Below are positions 48,644 through 56,314 of a stretch of DNA of 64,000 nucleotides, in pieces. The notes under the pieces are model-generated. The model searched no databases, had not been told where the DNA came from, and saw nothing but the letters and a program-made list of their open reading frames with translations. This stretch comes from Escherichia coli (GTDB lineage: Bacteria > Pseudomonadota > Gammaproteobacteria > Enterobacterales > Enterobacteriaceae). Position numbers and translations under genes: made by a program. Location: assembly GCF_051903065.1 (NCBI RefSeq), contig NZ_CP178438.1; one strand, 5' to 3'. Each line of letters starts with the position of its first letter. The stretch's first letter is position 1.

Positions 48644-49518
48644 CCAAGACGTTACTGGACGGCCCCGGTCGCGTGCTGGAGTCGGTTTATCCCCGCTTTT
48701 TAGTGGATCTGGCGCAGGGCGATGATGCCCGCCTTCCACAAGCCCATCAGCAGCAGTTTCGTGAACGACTGATGCAGGAACTTCTTGCGCGCGTGCAGCT
48801 TCAGACATGGACGAACGGCGGGATGTTAAATGCGCCGCTTAGTCTGCGTCTGACATTGGTGGAAAAACTGGCGTCGATGCTGGATCCCGGTCATCTGGCA
48901 CTGACGCAGATCGCGCAGCATCTGGCGCTGCTGCAAAAAATGGATCACCGCCAGCACTCTGCTTTCCCGGAGCTCCCCCAGCAAATTGCCGCCTTGTATG
49001 AGTGGTTTTCAGCCCGTTGTCGCTGGAAGGAAAAGGCGTTAACGCAACGAGGCCTACTGGTGCAGGCGGGTGAACAGAGCGAGCAAATTTTTACCCGCTG
49101 GCGTGCTGGGGCGTATAACGCCTGGTCGTTGCCTGGGCGCTGTTTTATCGTTCTCGAAGAGTTGCGTTGGGGGGCATTTGGCGATGCCTGTCGTCTGGGA
49201 AGCCCGCAAGCGGTGGCGTTGTTGCTGGGTGATTTGCGCGTGAAAGCGACACAACATCTGGCAGAGAGTATCAATGCGGCCCCGACCACGCGTCACTATT
49301 ACCATCAGTGGTTTGCCTCTTCGACCGTTCCGACGGGCGGGGATCATGCTGATTTTTTAAGTTGGCTGGGAAAGTGGACCACGGCAGATAAACAACCCGT
49401 TTGCTGGTCAGTGACCCAACGCTGGCAAACTGTCGCGCTGGGGATGCCACGACTCTGTTCAGCGCAGCGTCTGGCGGGGGCAATGCTCGAGGAAATCTTC
49501 TCTGTAAATTTGGTGTAA
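48640..49518 (+). CDS. yjcZ: YjcZ, CrfC-associated protein of unknown function
   Basis: 292 aa; ATGA overlap with crfC stop. Confidence 0.85.
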   Translation: MTKTLLDGPGRVLESVYPRFLVDLAQGDDARLPQAHQQQFRERLMQELLARVQLQTWTNGGMLNAPLSLRLTLVEKLASMLDPGHLALTQIAQHLALLQKMDHRQHSAFPELPQQIAALYEWFSARCRWKEKALTQRGLLVQAGEQSEQIFTRWRAGAYNAWSLPGRCFIVLEELRWGAFGDACRLGSPQAVALLLGDLRVKATQHLAESINAAPTTRHYYHQWFASSTVPTGGDHADFLSWLGKWTTADKQPVCWSVTQRWQTVALGMPRLCSAQRLAGAMLEEIFSVNLV

Positions 49519-49556
49519 ATAATCAGTTACATCAATGAGTCCTAAACGAAATCCAT

Positions 49557-49572
49557 GTGTGAAGTTGATCAC
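49557..49572. promoter_or_regulatory. CRP binding site in proP promoter region
   Basis: Perfect TGTGA-agttga-TCACA palindrome about 210 bp upstream of proP ATG. Confidence 0.7.
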
Positions 49573-49781
49573 AAATTTAAACGCTGGTAGGGTAAAAAGG
49601 TCATTAACTGCCCAATTCAGGCGTCAACTGGTTTGATTGTACATTCCTTAACCGGAGGGTGTAAGCAAACCCGCTACGCTTGTTACAGAGATTGCATCCT
49701 GCAATTCCCGCTCCCCTTTTGCGGCCGTCGCGCTGATTTTTCTGGCGTTTGCGGAAATGGGCCAACTCTGCGAGGAAAGCT

Positions 49782-51284
49782 ATGCTGAAAAGGAAAAAAG
49801 TAAAACCAATTACCCTTCGTGATGTCACCATTATTGATGACGGTAAACTGCGGAAAGCCATTACCGCAGCATCACTGGGTAATGCAATGGAATGGTTCGA
49901 TTTTGGTGTTTATGGTTTTGTTGCTTACGCATTAGGTAAAGTTTTTTTCCCGGGGGCTGACCCCAGCGTGCAGATGGTTGCTGCACTTGCCACGTTCTCC
50001 GTTCCCTTTCTGATTCGACCGCTTGGCGGACTCTTCTTTGGTATGTTGGGCGATAAATATGGTCGCCAGAAGATCCTCGCTATCACTATTGTGATTATGT
50101 CGATCAGTACGTTCTGTATTGGCTTAATACCGTCCTACGACACGATTGGTATTTGGGCACCGATTCTGCTGTTGATCTGTAAGATGGCACAAGGTTTCTC
50201 GGTCGGCGGTGAATATACCGGGGCGTCGATATTTGTTGCGGAATACTCCCCTGACCGTAAACGTGGCTTTATGGGCAGCTGGCTGGACTTCGGTTCTATT
50301 GCCGGGTTTGTGCTGGGTGCGGGCGTGGTGGTGTTAATTTCGACCATTGTCGGCGAAGCGAACTTCCTCGACTGGGGCTGGCGTATTCCGTTCTTTATTG
50401 CTCTGCCGTTAGGGATTATCGGGCTTTACCTGCGCCATGCGCTGGAAGAAACTCCGGCGTTCCAGCAGCATGTTGATAAACTGGAACAGGGCGACCGCGA
50501 AGGTTTGCAGGATGGCCCGAAAGTCTCGTTTAAAGAGATTGCCACTAAATACTGGCGCAGCCTGTTGACATGTATTGGTCTGGTAATTGCCACCAACGTG
50601 ACTTACTACATGTTGCTGACCTATATGCCGAGTTATTTGTCGCATAACCTGCATTACTCCGAAGACCACGGGGTGCTGATTATTATCGCCATTATGATCG
50701 GTATGCTGTTTGTCCAGCCGGTGATGGGCTTGCTGAGTGACCGTTTTGGCCGTCGTCCGTTTGTGCTACTTGGTAGTGTTGCACTGTTTGTGTTGGCGAT
50801 CCCGGCGTTTATTCTGATTAACAGTAACGTCATCGGCCTGATTTTTGCCGGGTTACTGATGCTGGCGGTGATCCTTAACTGCTTTACGGGCGTTATGGCT
50901 TCTACCTTGCCAGCGATGTTCCCGACGCATATCCGTTACAGCGCGCTGGCGGCGGCATTTAATATTTCGGTGCTGGTTGCCGGTCTGACGCCAACATTGG
51001 CGGCCTGGCTGGTCGAAAGCTCGCAGAATCTGATGATGCCAGCCTATTACCTGATGGTAGTGGCGGTGGTTGGTTTAATCACCGGCGTAACCATGAAAGA
51101 GACGGCAAATCGTCCGTTGAAAGGTGCAACACCGGCGGCGTCAGATATACAGGAAGCGAAGGAAATTCTCGTCGAGCATTACGATAATATCGAGCAGAAA
51201 ATCGATGATATTGACCACGAGATTGCCGATTTGCAGGCGAAACGTACCCGCCTGGTGCAGCAACATCCGCGAATTGATGAATAA
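49782..51284 (+). CDS. proP: osmosensing proline/glycine betaine:proton symporter ProP (MFS)
   Basis: 500 aa from ATG 49782 (MLKRKKVKPITLRDVTIIDD); C-terminal coiled-coil IDDIDHEIADLQAKRTRL; ORF track starts 11 codons upstream. Confidence 0.95.
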   Translation: MLKRKKVKPITLRDVTIIDDGKLRKAITAASLGNAMEWFDFGVYGFVAYALGKVFFPGADPSVQMVAALATFSVPFLIRPLGGLFFGMLGDKYGRQKILAITIVIMSISTFCIGLIPSYDTIGIWAPILLLICKMAQGFSVGGEYTGASIFVAEYSPDRKRGFMGSWLDFGSIAGFVLGAGVVVLISTIVGEANFLDWGWRIPFFIALPLGIIGLYLRHALEETPAFQQHVDKLEQGDREGLQDGPKVSFKEIATKYWRSLLTCIGLVIATNVTYYMLLTYMPSYLSHNLHYSEDHGVLIIIAIMIGMLFVQPVMGLLSDRFGRRPFVLLGSVALFVLAIPAFILINSNVIGLIFAGLLMLAVILNCFTGVMASTLPAMFPTHIRYSALAAAFNISVLVAGLTPTLAAWLVESSQNLMMPAYYLMVVAVVGLITGVTMKETANRPLKGATPAASDIQEAKEILVEHYDNIEQKIDDIDHEIADLQAKRTRLVQQHPRIDE

Positions 51285-51337
51285 GCTGAAACGGATGGCC
51301 TGATGTGACGCTGTCTTATCAGACCAACAATTGAACT

Positions 51338-51354
51338 CTTAAGGTTCACTTAAT
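51338..51354 (+). promoter_or_regulatory. PmrA (BasR) box upstream of pmrR
   Basis: CTTAAG-gttca-CTTAAT direct repeat, 45 bp upstream of pmrR ATG. Confidence 0.65.
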
Positions 51355-51398
51355 CTCTGACGCGCATACTCTCCTCCAGGTTAACGGAGGAGAGTGCA

Positions 51399-51488
51399 AT
51401 GAAAAACCGTGTTTATGAAAGTTTAACTACCGTGTTCAGCGTGCTGGTGGTCAGCAGCTTTCTTTATATCTGGTTTGCCACGTACTGA
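51399..51488 (+). CDS. pmrR: small membrane protein PmrR (29 aa)
   Basis: Hand-translated ATG 51399 to TGA 51488 gives MKNRVYESLTTVFSVLVVSSFLYIWFATY; GGAGG Shine-Dalgarno; PmrA box upstream; below the ORF-track size cut-off. Confidence 0.75.
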   Translation: MKNRVYESLTTVFSVLVVSSFLYIWFATY

Positions 51489-52555
51489 TCTTTCTTCAGC
51501 CGTATCCAGGCGCGCGTGCCAGAAGTCTCTTGCCGGTTTTGCAGGAAAAACTGCCCGTGATGCAACTGTGTAATGCGGCTGACAATACTTAACCCCAGAC
51601 CAATCCCGCCATAACGGCTGTCCATTCGTACAAACGCTTTACTCAACTCCCCGCATTTACTCTCATCAATACCCGGTCCTTCATCTTCAACGGCCATGAC
51701 CGCTCCGTCATCTTCTTGCAGCTTAATCATAATGTTGCTGCCTTGCGGGCTGTAACGATGGGCGTTTTCTACCAGATTTCGCAATAACATCCGCAGCAGG
51801 GTTGCATCACCCTGAACGGTGATGTCGGCGGTGCTCTCTGGCAATAGCAGGGTTTGCTGTCGCTGGTCGAGCATGGTACTGAGTTCGTCATACGAGGGGA
51901 GAATGACATCTTCCAGCAGTTTTACATGTTGATAATTACCGGAAGAAAATGACTGTCCGGCACGCGCCAGTTGCAGCAGCTGGGAGACGCTCTCCATCAT
52001 CTGATCAAGCCGTGCCACTAACGGTGCTACATCAATGTGATGCGTTTTCGCCAGCAGTTCCAGATGCAAACGTACCCCCGCCAGTGGCGTTCGCAGTTCG
52101 TGCGCGACGTCAGCGGTAAACAACCTTTCGTTATCCAGCGTGCTGGTCAGGCGACTGACCAGATCGTTTAACGCCGAAACCACCGCTTCGATTTCGAGGG
52201 TGGCGCTGTGAATGGCAATGGGCGTTAAGTTGTCGGCGGTGCGCGCTTCCAGCTCTTTTTGCAGCTCCGCCAGCGGGCGGGTGATGCGGCGTACCGCCTG
52301 ATAGCAGATAAATAGCGTCAGGCTGACCATAAAGACGCCGGGGACAATCAGGCTGGCGACCGCCTCGCGGATCTCACGCATGATGTGGCGATCGTTGTTG
52401 CGATTGTCGCGTAGCGCCTGCTCAAACAGCTGAATCTGCTCGGTACTTTCATGCCATAGCCAGAAGACGCTGATCAGCTCAAACACCAACAAAATGGCCC
52501 CGATGGTCAATATCAGCCGTTGGCGCAGCGATATTGGTCGGCGCAGAAAACGCAT
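51464..52555 (-). CDS. basS: sensor histidine kinase BasS (PmrB)
   Basis: 363 aa from ATG 52555 (MRFLRRPISLRQRLILTIG); HisKA H-box DVAHELRTP; 3' end overlaps pmrR on the opposite strand. Confidence 0.92.
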   Translation of the reverse strand: MRFLRRPISLRQRLILTIGAILLVFELISVFWLWHESTEQIQLFEQALRDNRNNDRHIMREIREAVASLIVPGVFMVSLTLFICYQAVRRITRPLAELQKELEARTADNLTPIAIHSATLEIEAVVSALNDLVSRLTSTLDNERLFTADVAHELRTPLAGVRLHLELLAKTHHIDVAPLVARLDQMMESVSQLLQLARAGQSFSSGNYQHVKLLEDVILPSYDELSTMLDQRQQTLLLPESTADITVQGDATLLRMLLRNLVENAHRYSPQGSNIMIKLQEDDGAVMAVEDEGPGIDESKCGELSKAFVRMDSRYGGIGLGLSIVSRITQLHHGQFFLQNRQETSGTRAWIRLKKDQYVANQI

Positions 52556-52564
52556 CAGATTCAA

Positions 52565-53233
52565 TTAGTTTTCCTCATTCGCGACCAGCATATAGCCAAA
52601 GCCGCGCACGGTGCGGATACGGGCTTTGCCCACTTTGTCGCGCAGATTGTGGATATGCACTTCCAGGGTGTTGGTCGAGGGTTCATTGTCCCAGTTATAG
52701 ATGTCGTTGTAGAGAATTTCCCGATGCACCGGACTGCCTGCTTTGAGCATTAACCGTGACAGCAGAGCATATTCTTTGGGCGTCAGAATCAACTCTTCAC
52801 CGCCCATCCATACCTGACGCCGACCCATGTTCAGCGTCAGATTGCCAACAATCAGCTCACTTTCGCCCTGATTATTATGGCGTCGTAGCAGGGCGCGGAT
52901 ACGGGCATGTAACTCTTCCAGCGCAAAAGGCTTCACCAGATAGTCGTCGGCACCGACATCCAGCCCGGCGATTTTGTCGGTCAGCGTATCGCGAGCGGTG
53001 AGGATCAGTACCGGCAGGGTATATTTTTTCTGCCGGATACGGGCGAGAAAATGCAGTCCATCTTCGTCGGGTAACCCTAAATCCAGTACCACCAGGCTGT
53101 AATGACCTGCCTCAAGGCTTTGTTCCGCCATCCGCGCGGTTGTCACGCCATCGCACGCGTAGCCTTCGGTTTGCGCCGCCAGAATCAGTCCCTGCAATAA
53201 CAGCGTATCGTCTTCAACAATCAGAATTTTCAT
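52565..53233 (-). CDS. basR: response regulator BasR (PmrA)
   Basis: 222 aa; [16 protein letters not shown] receiver domain and winged-helix C-terminus. Confidence 0.95.
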
Positions 53234-54873
53234 TCACTCACTCTCCTGCAAGTTTGCAGAATATCATCCGCAGCCTGGTAATACTTCGTCTCAACGCCAG
53301 TTAATCCCAATAGCGTGGAGAATAAATTGTCTTGTGAATAGTGTTGCGTTTGCGCCTGTTTTTGCAGGCAGTTCTGGTCAACCTGATACCGTTTTTGATA
53401 ATCCTCCGACAGCCACAGCAGCATCGGCACCTGTTTTTGGCTATCCGGGGCGATGGCATAAGGCAGACCGTGCAGATAGATGCCATTTTCACCTAACGAT
53501 TCACCGTGGTCAGAAAGATAAACCAGGCTGGTGGTAAATTTATCCTGATGTTCTTTCAGCAGATTAATCGCTTTATCAACAATATAGTCGACGTAAACCA
53601 GCGTGTTGTCGTAAGTGTTCACCAGTTGCTCTTTGGTACAGGTCTGGATCTCATTGGTGTCGCAGGTTGGGGTAAATTTCCTGAACTGCGGCGGATAGCG
53701 GTTGTAATAGGTCGGACCGTGGCTGCCGATGGTGTGTAAGACAATCACGCCATCACCCTGCAGGTTATTGATGTACTCTTCCAGCCCGTGGAACAGCACT
53801 TCGTCATAGCATTCGCCGTTGATGCACTGACCAGGCAGATTCAGCGCGGTGACGTTCTGGTGAGGCACGCGGTCGCAGGCACCTTTACAGCCCCCATCGT
53901 TGTCATTCCACAGCACGTTGATGCCCGCTCGCTGAATGATATCCAGCACGCCTTCCTGGTGCTGTGCCAGCTCTTCTTTGTAATGCTCACGCGGCATATC
54001 CGAGAACATGCACGGTACTGAAACTGCCGTTGCCGTGCCGCAAGATGCGGTATTAGGGAAATAGACCACGTTATCTTTCGCCAACCGCGGGTTAGTTTCA
54101 CGCGGGTAGCCGTTGAGGGAGAAGTTCTCCGCCCGCGAGGTTTCGCCGACAATCAGGATGGTCAAATTTTTACGTTTTTCGTTCTGCATTAACGGGTTGC
54201 GGTGCGCGTCTTCACCAATTCGCACCAGCGGCAGATTTGCCAGTCGCTGATGGGAGTACCATGACCAGCTGGCAACAATGCTGTTAGAGGGGCTTAAGGA
54301 CTTCACCAGCTCTTTGTTGTTGCGGAACAACGAGGCGTAGTCTTTATAAAATAGTGCGGCGACCAGCAAAATCAGCAGTACAGAAACCAGAATATTGGCT
54401 CCACGGAAAAGAACACTGCGCAGACGCGAGGTGGCAGGTTTGATTTTTATCCAGCAGGCAATCAGCGCAGCAAGCACGCCGCTGAATCCCAGCGTTAATA
54501 ACATTTGCGGTGTCATCAACGCATAACTTTCTGCCGGAGTGGTATCAATAATATTGGCAATCATCGAGCGGTCGATGACGATGCCGTAAGTCATTATGAA
54601 ATATTGTGCAGCCGCGCCAACCAGAATAAACAGGCAGGCCAGCGGTCGATTAAGCCATAAGAAAGAGCTTAGTGTCAGGACAATATTAATCACGCTGAAG
54701 GCGACGACCGGCATCGACAAGAAAACCAGTACGTTATGCAGCGAGTCCAGCGGCAGCGCCTGCAACACCTGTTTAAAAAAGGCAATATTCAGGCAGATAG
54801 AGATATAAAAAGCGGCCAACAATAGCCAGGCGAGTAAATTCAAAGAGGGTCTTTTTAGTAGGCGCTTCAACAT
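53230..54873 (-). CDS. eptA: lipid A phosphoethanolamine transferase EptA (PmrC)
   Basis: 547 aa from ATG 54873 ([18 protein letters not shown]); N-terminal TM helices and sulfatase-like domain; overlaps basR start. Confidence 0.93.
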
Positions 54874-54919
54874 CACGGTGTTTCCATCGAACAAAGTGCG
54901 CATATGCTCGCAAAGCAAA

Positions 54920-54936
54920 ATTAAGCCAACCTTAAG
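54920..54936 (-). promoter_or_regulatory. PmrA (BasR) box of eptA promoter
   Basis: Minus strand CTTAAG-gttgg-CTTAAT, 47-63 bp upstream of eptA ATG. Confidence 0.65.
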
Positions 54937-54950
54937 TTCTTAAGGTTGGC
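54925..54950 (-). terminator. hairpin terminator downstream of adiC (overlaps PmrA box)
   Basis: Palindrome gccaaccttaag-tt-cttaaggttggc followed on the minus strand by UUAAUUUUGCUUU. Confidence 0.55.
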
Positions 54951-54976
54951 TTTTATCTTTGCTGGATTAAGGGGAA

Positions 54977-56314
54977 TTAATCTTTGCTTATTGGTGCATC
55001 TAAGGGATACGGGTTTTTATGCAGCCGGTTGTAATTCAGCGCATACATGGCGGTGATGACCATCAGGGTGACAAATGACCACATAACCTCTTTCGCCCCG
55101 GACCCCACCACGGCCCAGATGCAGTAGAGGAAGGCAATGGTAGTAACTGCCAGATATGCCGGGCGTGCTTTACCAAAGTGACCGTGTCCGAGCAGCAGTA
55201 ACGCCGCACAGGTGTAAAGATATGGCACCAGTGTAAAGATGACCGACACGGAAGAAACCAGACCGAATTCTTTGGTCGCGTTTGGTGAAATGCTGCTGAG
55301 CTGGAAGATGGTCATCAAAATACCGACGATAATCAGCCCCGCCACTGGCGTACCCGCTTTATTTACACGGGCAAAAATCGGTGGGAACAGTCCGTCATCG
55401 GCAGCGGCTTTCGCCGTTTGACCCGCCAGCAATGTCCAGCCGCCCAGTGAACCTAAGCAACCCGCAGCTGCGCAGAAGGAAACAATAGCCCCGGCGGTGT
55501 CACCCAACGCCATCCGTGCGGCATCACCGAATGGCGAGGCAGAAACGCGCAGTGCGGCATTAGGGATCATCCCCATAATCGCGGTGGTGGAGAGCACATA
55601 GCAAACGGCGGCAATCAATACCCCACCAATGGTGGCTATAGGGACGTTGCGTTTCGGGTTTTTCACCACACCTGCGGCAACGGAGGCACTTTCCACACCG
55701 ATGAACGACCACAGCGTAACGTTAAGGGTACTTTGAATTGCACCGAAGGTGCCCAGGCCGCTGACGTTCCATGCCGCCATATAGGTTTCACCACGAAACC
55801 AGAACCAGCCAAATACGGCAATCCCGACGATGGGGATCAGCGCCAGCACGGTGGCAACGGCCTGCACACGGGTGATCATTTTCGGACCGACAATGTTCAG
55901 CAGGACGAAGATCCACAGCACCACGACGCAGGTGATGGTTAATACCAATGGATCTTTCAGAATCGGGAAGAAGTAACTTAAATATCCTACGCCAATGACC
56001 ACCATGGCGATATTGCCGATCCAGCAGGCCAGCCAGTAGAGGACGTTGGTTTGATAACCGAGAAACGGGCCAAAGCAGCGGCGGGCGTAAGCGTAAGAAC
56101 CACCAGGACTTGGGTCGAGGAACGACATTTTGGCGTATACCATCGAGAGCCCCAGCGCACCGATAATCGTCACCAACCATCCATAAATGGCAATCCCGCC
56201 AGTGGAGGCCAGGTTTGCAGGTAACAGAAAAACACCTGACCCCATAATATTCCCCGACACCATCAGGGTGACGGGGATTAAGCCCACTTTGTGAGCATCA
56301 GCATCCGAAGACAT
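54977..56314 (-). CDS. adiC: arginine:agmatine antiporter AdiC
   Basis: 445 aa APC-family transporter; [29 protein letters not shown]. Confidence 0.95.

What the first reader, a model, noticed from the sequence alone, without database searches (positions are those of the whole stretch)
51338..51488. PmrA-box-driven 29-codon gene pmrR overlapping the basS 3' end antisense, with its RBS inside a hairpin
ATG 51399 to TGA 51488 encodes a 29 aa hydrophobic peptide and is preceded by a YTTAAK-N5-YTTAAK PmrA box at 51338-51354. Its last 25 nt overlap the 3' end of basS on the opposite strand. The GGAGG Shine-Dalgarno (51386-51390) is the right arm of a 10 bp stem (actctcctcc / ggaggagagt, 51368-51395). 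That stem could be the proP terminator, a translational gate for pmrR, or both.
Basis: partly seen in the sequence, partly recalled or inferred. Interest (0 to 1): 0.55.

Follow-up and report, generated by a model that had tools for sequence, protein, structure and literature searches.

The report
Known pmrR gene; promoter-embedded RBS hairpin
This is the already annotated E. coli small-protein gene pmrR with its known PmrA-dependent promoter; the one part not yet described is a conserved hairpin that probably caps the upstream proP message and hides the pmrR ribosome-binding site only on RNAs that read in from upstream.

Summary
But the gene, its PmrA box and its overlap with basS are already known. 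RefSeq annotates pmrR in about 5,400 E. coli genomes, and NCBIfam NF033224 matches at 74 bits. The whole stretch is Rfam RF02052 (STnc630), whose consensus already contains the hairpin. Published work shows translation (Ribo-RET) and a phenotype when the PmrA box is deleted.

The hairpin is real (-19.9 kcal/mol, z -4.5). It is kept with compensatory changes in 50 Enterobacteriaceae and is absent where pmrR is absent. Its left arm overlaps a conserved -10-like hexamer that lies 10 nt after the PmrA box. The PmrA-driven start is therefore predicted at about 51375-51378, at the 3' end of the left arm. That mRNA should lack the left arm and have an open ribosome-binding site.

Only RNA arriving from proP carries both arms. 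Published Term-seq and TRS data place a plus-strand 3' end 4-5 nt after the stem. Rho terminates the read-through further downstream.

Best reading: the hairpin caps the proP 3' end and masks the pmrR site on read-through RNA. It is not a gate on pmrR's own mRNA. The start site itself has not been measured.

The parts
49782..51284 (+). proP coding sequence, the co-directional upstream gene whose transcripts run into the pmrR region
   Evidence: ORF list. RefSeq annotation of the identical stretch in L001, converted to window coordinates.
51296..51326 (.). REP-like imperfect hairpin just after the proP stop codon
   Evidence: Fold of 51285-51420. It resembles the full REP copies found elsewhere in the window but has a shorter centre.
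51330..51495 (+). Match to Rfam RF02052 (STnc630), which in fact covers the pmrR promoter plus mRNA
   Evidence: 181.8 bits against a gathering score of 55. The consensus structure includes the hairpin.
51338..51354 (+). PmrA (BasR) box CTTAAG-GTTCA-CTTAAT
   Evidence: Exact consensus match. A box with 0-1 mismatch is present in all 50 aligned taxa and lies 58-62 nt before the ATG in nearly all pmrR loci. Deleting it in E. coli abolishes PmrR function (PMC8129183).
51365..51370 (+). Inferred -10 hexamer CATACT, 10 nt after the box. Its last three bases are the first three of the hairpin's left arm.
   Evidence: The nAnACT pattern is near-invariant in 50 taxa although the pairing partners of its two A's vary. 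The eptA promoter has the same box, 10 nt, nAnnnT layout. This is inferred, not mapped.
51375..51378 (+). Predicted PmrA-dependent transcription start
   Evidence: The hexamer rule gives 51377 or 51378. Taking the box end as about -21, from the pbgP promoter numbering in PMC10570014, gives 51375. Inference only.
51368..51395 (.). Conserved 10-bp stem with an 8-nt loop. The left arm covers the end of the -10 and the start region; the right arm covers the Shine-Dalgarno sequence.
   Evidence: Fold. Covariation in 50 taxa. Absent in taxa without pmrR.
51386..51390 (+). Shine-Dalgarno GGAGG of pmrR, 8 nt before the ATG
   Evidence: Sequence. A purine-rich GAGG/GGAG core sits at the same alignment columns in the aligned taxa.
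51399..51400 (+). Mapped plus-strand RNA 3' end, assigned here to proP transcripts
   Evidence: Term-seq 3' end at K-12 4332116, position 1 of pmrR, with a sequence context identical to the window (PMC7815308). TRS dominant position 4332117 (PMC10687069).
51399..51488 (+). pmrR coding sequence, 29 aa, LpxT activity modulator
   Evidence: ORF. NCBIfam NF033224 at 74.2 bits against a cut-off of 30. RefSeq annotation. Ribo-RET and membrane fractionation (PMC11429745).
51442..51456 (+). Terminator-like hairpin with a T-rich tail inside the pmrR coding sequence; role unknown
   Evidence: Consensus scan. It is also paired in the Rfam consensus. No 3' end here appeared among the entries retrieved from the TRS and Term-seq supplements.
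51464..52564 (-). basS/pmrB coding sequence, convergent with pmrR, 25-nt overlap
   Evidence: ORF and annotation. Among genera the overlap ranges from an 8-nt gap to 57 nt.

Best explanation
The locus is the known E. coli gene pmrR. It encodes a 29-aa membrane peptide that inhibits LpxT. It is transcribed from a PmrA (BasR)-activated promoter in which the PmrA box takes the place of the -35 element.

The conserved hairpin is built across that promoter. Its left arm is made of the last bases of the -10 hexamer plus the discriminator and start region. Its right arm is the Shine-Dalgarno region.

Transcripts started by PmrA begin at about 51375-51378. They lack the left arm, carry a leader of roughly 21-24 nt with little structure, and are translated.

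Transcripts that come from upstream carry both arms. In Escherichia and Citrobacter the upstream gene is proP; in several other genera it is a uvrB-like gene. On these RNAs the stem has two effects:
1. It blocks 3'-to-5' trimming after Rho-dependent termination further downstream. This gives the stable proP 3' end seen 4-5 nt after the stem.
2. It buries the pmrR ribosome-binding site, so read-through RNA does not make PmrR when PmrA is off.

Status of each step:
- Shown by others: gene identity, translation, dependence on the PmrA box, the 3' end, and Rho termination downstream.
- Shown here: conservation, covariation and linkage to pmrR.
- Inferred: the start-site position, the trimming origin of the 3' end, and the masking function.

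The confidence given (0.5) is for the full hairpin mechanism; the gene identity itself is essentially certain.
For: Identity:
- RefSeq annotates pmrR under the match in the listed records, and the stretch is present in 5,408 of 5,426 E. coli genomes.
- NCBIfam NF033224 matches at 74.2 bits against a cut-off of 30.
- Rfam RF02052 matches at 181.8 bits.

Function from the literature:
- Ribo-RET start-site reads rise 5-fold in low Mg2+, and the peptide is in the membrane fraction (PMC11429745).
- Deleting the PmrA box in a PmrA-constitutive E. coli strain gives polymyxin sensitivity, and deleting lpxT reverses it (PMC8129183).

Conservation of the architecture in 50 aligned taxa:
- 83.8% of helix cells are paired, against 34-50% when the partner is slid by 1-3 columns.
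- 42 cells carry a change on both sides, against 14.9 in shuffles (0 of 500 shuffles reach this).
- The covariation score is 0.259 against 0.144.

Linkage to pmrR: relatives that lack pmrR have neither the box nor the hairpin after pmrB.

Promoter geometry:
- The nAnACT hexamer lies exactly 10 nt after the box. Its two A's stay conserved although their pairing partners vary, with A-C in 21 and 17 taxa.
- The eptA promoter in this window has the same layout.
- The pmra-box overlaps the -35 element and lies at roughly -37 to -21 (PMC10570014).

Energetics: opening the ribosome-binding site (-15 to +6) costs at least 19.7 kcal/mol for any 5' end at or before 51368. It costs about 5 kcal/mol for starts at 51375-51380. 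Across the 50 taxa the means are 16.9 and 6.2 kcal/mol, and the direction is the same in all 50.

Read-through is real:
- Plus-strand 3' ends map to 51399 and 51400.
- A Rho termination region lies on the plus strand antisense to basS, Rho score 8.6, p = 3e-37.

Strand: in the helix core, G-U pairs that work only on the plus strand outnumber A-C cells 34 to 8.
Against: - No measured pmrR start site was available. Kato et al. 2012 is not held. The whole reading rests on promoter geometry.
- The Rfam model starts 8 nt upstream of the PmrA box. That might reflect a longer transcript carrying both arms, although the origin of this boundary is unknown.
- The G-U asymmetry could partly be a by-product of constraint on the purine-rich Shine-Dalgarno arm. 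Over all 12 pairs there is no asymmetry, 46 against 47.
- Mean folding energies of the two strands differ little: -17.0 against -15.7 kcal/mol, Wilcoxon p = 0.03 on related sequences.
- By scan and by eye, roughly 10-13 of 52 loci have a canonical terminator between the upstream gene and the box. Read-through should be low there, yet the hairpin persists.
- Xu et al. 2021 found that cutting the basS downstream region at +86, which removes the left arm, lowers pmrB mRNA about 315-fold and abolishes colistin resistance (PMC8004244). That points to a role on the minus strand.
Confidence: 0.5

Rival explanations
1. One reading: the hairpin lies within pmrR's own 5' leader and gates translation of the PmrA-driven mRNA. 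Something such as temperature, a small RNA, a protein or processing would have to open it.
For: The Shine-Dalgarno sequence is in the right arm in every taxon. The stem is strong. The Rfam STnc630 model begins at 51330 and includes both arms. PmrR dosage appears to matter, because both deletion and overproduction give growth defects (PMC11429745).
Against: The PmrA box replaces the -35 element (PMC10570014). A conserved -10-like hexamer lies 10 nt after the box and overlaps the left arm, so the start should fall at about 51375-51378. No sigma-70 promoter-like site lies further upstream in 51100-51700. A transcript cannot start upstream of its own activator site at 51330.
Confidence: 0.12
2. 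The hairpin works on the minus strand, as the 3'-end stabiliser or terminator of the eptA-basR-basS mRNA. Its overlap with the pmrR promoter and ribosome-binding site is a packing accident.
For: The stem folds equally well on the minus strand, -20.3 kcal/mol. Constructs with 86 nt of basS downstream sequence lack the left arm, have about 315-fold less pmrB mRNA and show no lipid A modification. Constructs with 103 nt or 126 nt restore both (PMC8004244). My coordinate conversion places +86 at 51378, +103 at 51361 and +126 at 51338. In most taxa the scan found no terminator-like hairpin between the PmrA box and the upstream gene, leaving this stem the main structure there.
Against: Relatives with pmrB but without pmrR lack the hairpin and use ordinary terminators. 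About ten or more pmrR-bearing taxa have a canonical minus-strand terminator just beyond the box and still keep the hairpin. There is no U tract. Core wobble pairs favour the plus strand 34 to 8. The same study found no change in pmrB mRNA half-life. The +103 and +126 steps also restore the -10 and the PmrA box, and the strandedness of the RT-qPCR was not established here, so the result is ambiguous. This role would not exclude the plus-strand role.
Confidence: 0.2
3. The hairpin is a plain intrinsic (Rho-independent) terminator of proP, possibly bidirectional.
For: Plus-strand 3' ends lie 4-5 nt after the stem in two independent data sets. The TRS authors say that SEnd-seq shows termination of the upstream gene inside pmrR.
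Against: The stem is followed by GCAAUGAAAAA on the plus strand and AUGCGCGUCAG on the minus strand, with no U tract on either. The consensus scan does not call it a terminator. Plus-strand RNA continues and is stopped by Rho about 350 nt further on.
Confidence: 0.1

Closest known systems
PmrR, LpxT activity modulator (NCBIfam NF033224; first described in Salmonella by Kato, Chen, Latifi and Groisman, Mol Cell 2012, as cited in PMC8004244 and PMC11429745)
   Same: Full-length match of the 29-aa peptide. PmrA box upstream. Position convergent with the 3' end of pmrB. Annotated as pmrR in RefSeq E. coli genomes.
   Different: Nothing. This is the E. coli orthologue, and it has already been studied genetically in E. 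coli (PMC8129183).
Rfam RF02052, 'Enterobacterial sRNA STnc630'
   Same: It covers 51330-51495 on the plus strand. Its consensus structure already holds the 11-bp hairpin and the hairpin inside the coding sequence.
   Different: Rfam files it as a small RNA gene. The region actually holds a PmrA box, a promoter and a translated 29-codon ORF. The model's 5' boundary lies upstream of the activator site, so it cannot be the PmrA-dependent start.
'Fold-back inhibition' of IS10 and IS50 transposase mRNAs that start outside the element (Davis, Simons and Kleckner 1985; Schulz and Reznikoff 1991; recalled from my own knowledge, not checked here)
   Same: One arm of an inverted repeat lies upstream of the gene's own start site, and the other arm covers the ribosome-binding site. 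Only transcripts reading in from outside can fold and are kept untranslated.
   Different: Here it would protect a chromosomal regulatory peptide gene from a neighbouring housekeeping gene. The left arm is fused to the -10 of an activator-dependent promoter, and the same stem also marks the neighbour's mRNA 3' end. The mechanism has not been tested for pmrR.
3' stem-loops that define stable ends of Rho-terminated transcripts (Dar and Sorek 2018, listed among the references of the TRS supplement)
   Same: A stable stem without a U tract. A mapped 3' end a few nt downstream. Rho-dependent termination further on.
   Different: The stem also contains the next gene's -10 and start region and its Shine-Dalgarno sequence.

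Membership tests
PmrR small protein (NCBIfam NF033224) | Sequence match above the curated cut-off over the full length | tested here: met
   74.2 bits against a cut-off of 30, residues 1-29 matching profile positions 1-29 of 29.
PmrR small protein (NCBIfam NF033224) | Position next to and convergent with the 3' end of pmrB/basS, with a PmrA box upstream | tested here: met
   The same arrangement occurs in about 55 Enterobacteriaceae loci.
PmrR small protein (NCBIfam NF033224) | Membrane peptide that inhibits LpxT | not testable with these tools
   Literature only. Membrane fraction in PMC11429745. Genetic evidence in E. coli in PMC8129183.
PmrA/BasR-activated promoter with the box in place of the -35 element | YTTAAK-N5-YTTAAK direct repeat | tested here: met
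   Exact match at 51338-51354. A box with 0-1 mismatch in all 50 aligned taxa.
PmrA/BasR-activated promoter with the box in place of the -35 element | Box placed over the -35 position, with a -10 element at a fixed short distance | tested here: met
   The conserved nAnACT hexamer lies 10 nt after the box. The eptA promoter has the same layout. The overlap with -35 is stated in PMC10570014.
PmrA/BasR-activated promoter with the box in place of the -35 element | PmrA-dependent transcription from a mapped start site | not testable with these tools
   The box-deletion phenotype is published. No start-site data were found.
Intrinsic (Rho-independent) terminator | G+C-rich stem-loop | tested here: met
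   10-bp stem, -19.9 kcal/mol.
Intrinsic (Rho-independent) terminator | U tract directly after the stem | tested here: not met
   There is no T run on either strand, and the scan does not call it a terminator.
Ribosome-binding-site sequestering leader of the gene's own mRNA (translational gate) | Shine-Dalgarno sequence paired in a stable stem | tested here: met
   GGAGG forms the 5' half of the right arm.
Ribosome-binding-site sequestering leader of the gene's own mRNA (translational gate) | Both arms lie downstream of the gene's own transcription start | tested here: inconclusive
   Promoter geometry predicts a start at 51375-51378, which would exclude the left arm. No measured start site exists.
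Fold-back inhibition of read-through transcripts (IS10/IS50 type) | The upstream arm lies outside the gene's own transcript, and co-directional transcription enters from upstream | tested here: inconclusive
   Read-through is documented by the 3' end at the stem and the Rho region downstream. The arm lying outside the transcript is inferred. The effect on translation is untested.
Rfam RF02052 STnc630 | Covariance-model score above the gathering threshold | tested here: met
   181.8 bits against 55, full-length match.

The most novel reading that the evidence does not exclude
The hairpin is a conserved 'promoter-in-a-hairpin' insulator. An activator-dependent promoter is embedded in the left arm of a stem that buries the ribosome-binding site. 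Translation competence is then decided by where the RNA starts. PmrA-initiated RNA is open. RNA reading through from proP, or from a uvrB-like gene in other genera, is closed, untranslated, Rho-terminated and trimmed back to the stem. The eptA promoter, fused to the adiC terminator, may be a second example of promoter and terminator sharing sequence in the same regulon.
Probability: 0.4. Interest if true: 0.45.

Novelty: already known. Interest (0 to 1): 0.27.

Why it matters
The gene itself adds nothing new. PmrR is annotated and has been studied as the peptide that switches lipid A position 1 from LpxT phosphorylation to phosphoethanolamine addition, which affects polymyxin and bile resistance.

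The hairpin has some modest value:

- It is conserved with covariation across Enterobacteriaceae, and it is tied to pmrR rather than to pmrB.
- Its placement across the -10 region and the Shine-Dalgarno sequence suggests a simple way to keep a dosage-sensitive peptide silent while a strongly expressed neighbour (proP) reads into it.
- It offers another way to read the published finding that the 'pmrB 3' downstream region' is needed for colistin resistance in BL21. The +86, +103 and +126 truncation points remove, in turn, the left arm with the -10, and then the PmrA box of pmrR.
- It indicates that Rfam's STnc630 is a coding mRNA with its promoter rather than a small RNA.

Tried and rejected
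- Kato et al. 2012 (PMC3465083) and Thomason et al. 2015 (PMC4288677) are not held. No measured pmrR start site could be obtained.
- Searches for 'pmrR' with 'transcription start site', for 'PmrA box' with 'transcription start site', for 'STnc630', and for the Salmonella transcriptome compendium gave no start-site data.
- The sigma-70 consensus scan finds no promoter in 51100-51700. This is expected for an activator-dependent promoter without a -35 element, so it says nothing against the PmrA promoter.
- The intrinsic-terminator reading was rejected for lack of a U tract.
- A simple unpaired-probability measure of the Shine-Dalgarno sequence discriminated poorly, 0.22 against 0.41. Weak alternative pairings count as fully paired in that measure. 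I replaced it with the opening-energy calculation.
- Counting G-U against A-C over all 12 pairs gave no strand bias, 46 against 47. Only the eight core pairs do, 34 against 8. The outer pairs involve the conserved -10 A's.
- The genome scan returned no Salmonella locus, so the species in which pmrR was first characterised is represented only through the Rfam consensus.

Full report
**1. Observation**

- A 29-codon ORF runs from ATG 51399 to TGA 51488 and encodes MKNRVYESLTTVFSVLVVSSFLYIWFATY.
- An exact PmrA box, CTTAAGGTTCACTTAAT, lies at 51338-51354.
- GGAGG lies at 51386-51390.
- A perfect 10-bp stem pairs 51368-51377 with 51386-51395 across an 8-nt loop.
- The ORF overlaps the convergent basS/pmrB ORF (51464-52564, minus strand) by 25 nt.

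These features are more than chance would give. The only other exact PmrA box in the 64-kb window is in front of eptA, at 54920-54936 on the minus strand. The stem folds at -19.9 kcal/mol, z = -4.5, and no shuffle out of 200 folds as well. It is one of only two perfect inverted repeats of 10 nt or more in 49000-55000.

**2. What it is**

The window is Escherichia coli. The 311-nt stretch around the finding occurs in 5,408 of 5,426 complete E. coli genomes. RefSeq annotates the listed records as proP, pmrR ('LpxT activity modulator PmrR'), pmrB, basR, eptA.

The peptide matches NCBIfam NF033224 (PmrR, equivalog) over its full length at 74.2 bits, against a cut-off of 30. The DNA from 51330 to 51495 matches Rfam RF02052, 'STnc630', at 181.8 bits. 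That family's consensus structure already contains this hairpin.

- Translation: Ribo-RET start-site reads for PmrR rise 5-fold in low Mg2+, and PmrR-His6 is found in the membrane fraction (PMC11429745).
- PmrA dependence: deleting only the PmrA box of the pmrR promoter in a PmrA-constitutive E. coli strain causes polymyxin sensitivity and deoxycholate resistance. Deleting lpxT restores polymyxin resistance (PMC8129183).

The gene, its regulation and its overlap with pmrB are therefore already known.

**3. The hairpin: conservation**

The only open part of the finding is the hairpin. I fetched pmrB loci from 80 species. About 55 of them carry a PmrR-like ORF of 27-33 aa convergent with pmrB. 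All of these show the same layout:
- a PmrA box with 0-1 mismatch, 58-62 nt before the ATG in nearly all;
- ten nucleotides later, a hexamer of the form nAnACT;
- a stem whose left arm begins inside that hexamer, and whose right arm holds the Shine-Dalgarno sequence and ends 3-5 nt before the ATG.

The arms covary. Examples are ACTCTCCTCC/GGAGGAGAGT, ACTATCCTCA/TGAGGATAGT and ACTGCCCC/GGAGGGCAGT.

On the 50-sequence alignment:
- 83.8% of helix cells are paired, against 34-50% when the 3' partner is slid by 1-3 columns.
- 42 cells carry changes on both sides, against 14.9 in shuffles (0 of 500 shuffles reach this).
- The covariation score is 0.259 against 0.144.

Relatives that have pmrB but no pmrR have neither the box nor the hairpin after pmrB. 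This group includes several Enterobacteriaceae, Pectobacterium, Rahnella and others. They use ordinary terminators instead. The hairpin therefore goes with pmrR, not with pmrB.

The 25-nt overlap with pmrB is not conserved. It ranges from an 8-nt gap to a 57-nt overlap.

**4. Where the pmrR mRNA starts (inferred)**

Three lines of evidence place the -10 element at CATACT, 51365-51370.
- The A's at hexamer positions 2 and 4 and the T at position 6 are invariant or nearly so. Yet the bases that would pair with the two A's in the stem vary freely, with A-C in 21 and 17 taxa. The A's are therefore conserved for a reason other than pairing.
- The eptA promoter in the same window has the same layout: box, 10 nt, GAGCAT.
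[quoted passage not shown] The start is then at 51377 (C) or 51378 (A) by the hexamer rule, or at 51375 if the box end is taken as -21. All of these positions fall at the 3' end of the left arm or at the first loop base. The PmrA-driven mRNA should therefore lack the left arm.

I found no measured start site. The original Salmonella paper is not held.

**5. Energetic consequence**

I calculated the cost of opening positions -15 to +6 around the start codon.
- In E. coli it is at least 19.7 kcal/mol for any 5' end at or upstream of 51368.
- It is about 5 kcal/mol for starts at 51375-51380.
- Across the 50 taxa the means are 16.9 kcal/mol for RNA entering from upstream and 6.2 kcal/mol for RNA starting at the predicted +1. 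The direction is the same in all 50.

**6. RNA from upstream does reach the hairpin**

- Term-seq lists a plus-strand 3' end at K-12 position 4332116, position 1 of pmrR. Its sequence context is identical to window 51349-51409. This places the end at window 51399, 4 nt after the stem (PMC7815308).
- TRS analysis of RNAtag-seq data gives a 3' terminus at 4332112-4332120, with the dominant position at 4332117, which is window 51400 (PMC10687069). Its authors note that SEnd-seq shows the upstream gene ending inside pmrR.
- The stem has no U tract on either strand and is not called a terminator.
- The bicyclomycin experiment of Adams et al. finds a Rho termination region on the plus strand at 4332468, about window 51751, antisense to basS. 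Downstream coverage rises from 32 to 443 reads with bicyclomycin, giving a Rho score of 8.6 and p = 3e-37.

The simplest reading is as follows. Plus-strand RNA, presumably from proP because the PmrA regulon is largely off in LB, runs through the stem and through pmrR. Rho stops it further on. Exonucleases then trim it back to the stem. The trimming step is inferred.

In other genera the co-directional upstream gene is uvrB-like. In Kosakonia its stop codon falls inside the PmrA box itself. Read-through into pmrR is unavoidable there.

**7. Which strand is under selection**

The stem folds about equally well on both strands in E. coli. Across taxa the plus strand is slightly better: -17.0 against -15.7 kcal/mol, 29 taxa against 18, Wilcoxon p = 0.03 on related sequences.

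In the eight core pairs, wobble pairs that work only on the plus strand outnumber A-C cells 34 to 8. Over all 12 pairs there is no bias, 46 against 47. The outer pairs involve the conserved -10 A's.

This is modest support for a plus-strand RNA. Constraint on the purine-rich Shine-Dalgarno arm could produce part of the bias.

**8. The minus-strand rival**

Xu et al. (PMC8004244) found that a colistin-resistance allele of pmrB needs at least 103 nt of downstream sequence. With 86 nt the MIC is 0.5, there is no lipid A modification, and pmrB mRNA is about 315-fold lower. With 103 nt the MIC is 4, and with 126 nt it is 16. The mRNA half-life does not change.

Converted to window coordinates:
- +86 is 51378, which cuts off the left arm and the -10.
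- +103 is 51361, which restores the stem and the -10.
- +126 is 51338, which restores the whole PmrA box.

The series thus restores, step by step, both the minus-strand stem and the pmrR promoter, and it cannot separate the two. It does give the minus-strand role some experimental support.

Against that role as the conserved one:
- the hairpin is absent where pmrR is absent;
- the hairpin persists in taxa such as Klebsiella, which have a canonical bidirectional terminator just beyond the box.

The two roles are not mutually exclusive.

**9. Comparison with known systems**

As a gene this is simply PmrR. As an RNA element it is already in Rfam, under a small-RNA label that appears to be a misnomer.

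As a mechanism, the closest analogue I know of is the 'fold-back inhibition' that protects the IS10 and IS50 transposase genes from transcripts entering from outside. There the upstream arm lies outside the element's own transcript. I recall this from memory and did not check it here.

The stem also fits the class of protective 3' stem-loops found on Rho-terminated transcripts. It fails the intrinsic-terminator test because it has no U tract. The 'own-leader translational gate' test is inconclusive without a mapped start site, and geometry argues against it.

**10. Verdict**

- The gene and the box are right but already known.
- The link between the stem and the proP 3' end is supported by published 3'-end maps.
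- The 'translational gate' probably applies only to read-through RNA, not to pmrR's own message.

Novelty: already known. Interest is low to moderate. It rests on the conserved promoter-in-a-hairpin arrangement, which I could not find described and which needs only a start-site map and a few fusions to test.

Noticed in passing
window 54920-54952: The eptA PmrA box (54936 to 54920, minus strand) forms the promoter-proximal arm of a perfect inverted repeat with 14-nt arms (54923-54936 and 54939-54952). The repeat scores as a bidirectional terminator-like hairpin. The published adiC 3' terminus (K-12 4335633) converts to window 54916, just after it. Both PmrA promoters of this locus are therefore fused to the 3'-end hairpin of the co-directional upstream gene.
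   Followed up: partly
window 51330-51495: Rfam RF02052 'STnc630', filed as a Salmonella small RNA, matches this region at 181.8 bits. The region actually holds the pmrR promoter, hairpin and coding sequence. The family looks like a mislabelled small-protein mRNA.
   Followed up: partly
window 51442-51456: A terminator-like hairpin (TGCTGG-TGG-TCAGCA) with a T-rich tail lies inside the pmrR coding sequence, 32 nt before its stop codon and just beyond the basS stop codon on the other strand. It is also paired in the Rfam consensus. No mapped 3' end at this position appeared among the entries I retrieved.
   Followed up: no
window about 51588 and about 51751: Published maps place pmrR's own 'primary' 3' end about 100 nt into antisense basS (K-12 4332305). 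They also place a Rho-dependent termination region on the plus strand at K-12 4332468. ExcludonFinder lists pmrR-basS as a convergent excludon. Antisense interference with basS was not examined here.
   Followed up: no
window 51296-51326: A REP-like imperfect hairpin with a shortened centre lies directly after the proP stop codon, between proP and the PmrA box. It is present in the other Escherichia loci (L002-L006).
   Followed up: partly
window 45176-45615: Five full REP copies (GCCTGATGCGACGCT...CTTATCAGGCC) lie on the minus strand at a spacing of about 100 nt, forming a tandem REP/BIME-type array.
   Followed up: no
loci L008-L062 (for example L040, L062, L016): Outside Escherichia and Citrobacter, the pmrCAB-pmrR cluster often lies next to a uvrB-like gene whose product ends in ...LRELFIAAS. 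In Kosakonia the stop codon of that gene lies inside the PmrA box of pmrR. Taxa that keep this uvrB-like gene next to pmrB but lack pmrR also lack the box and the hairpin.
   Followed up: partly
window 54961-54980 (minus strand): Upstream of the eptA box there is a second PmrA-like direct repeat, ATTAAT-TCCC-CTTAAT, with a 4-nt spacer instead of 5 nt. Its function is unknown.
   Followed up: no
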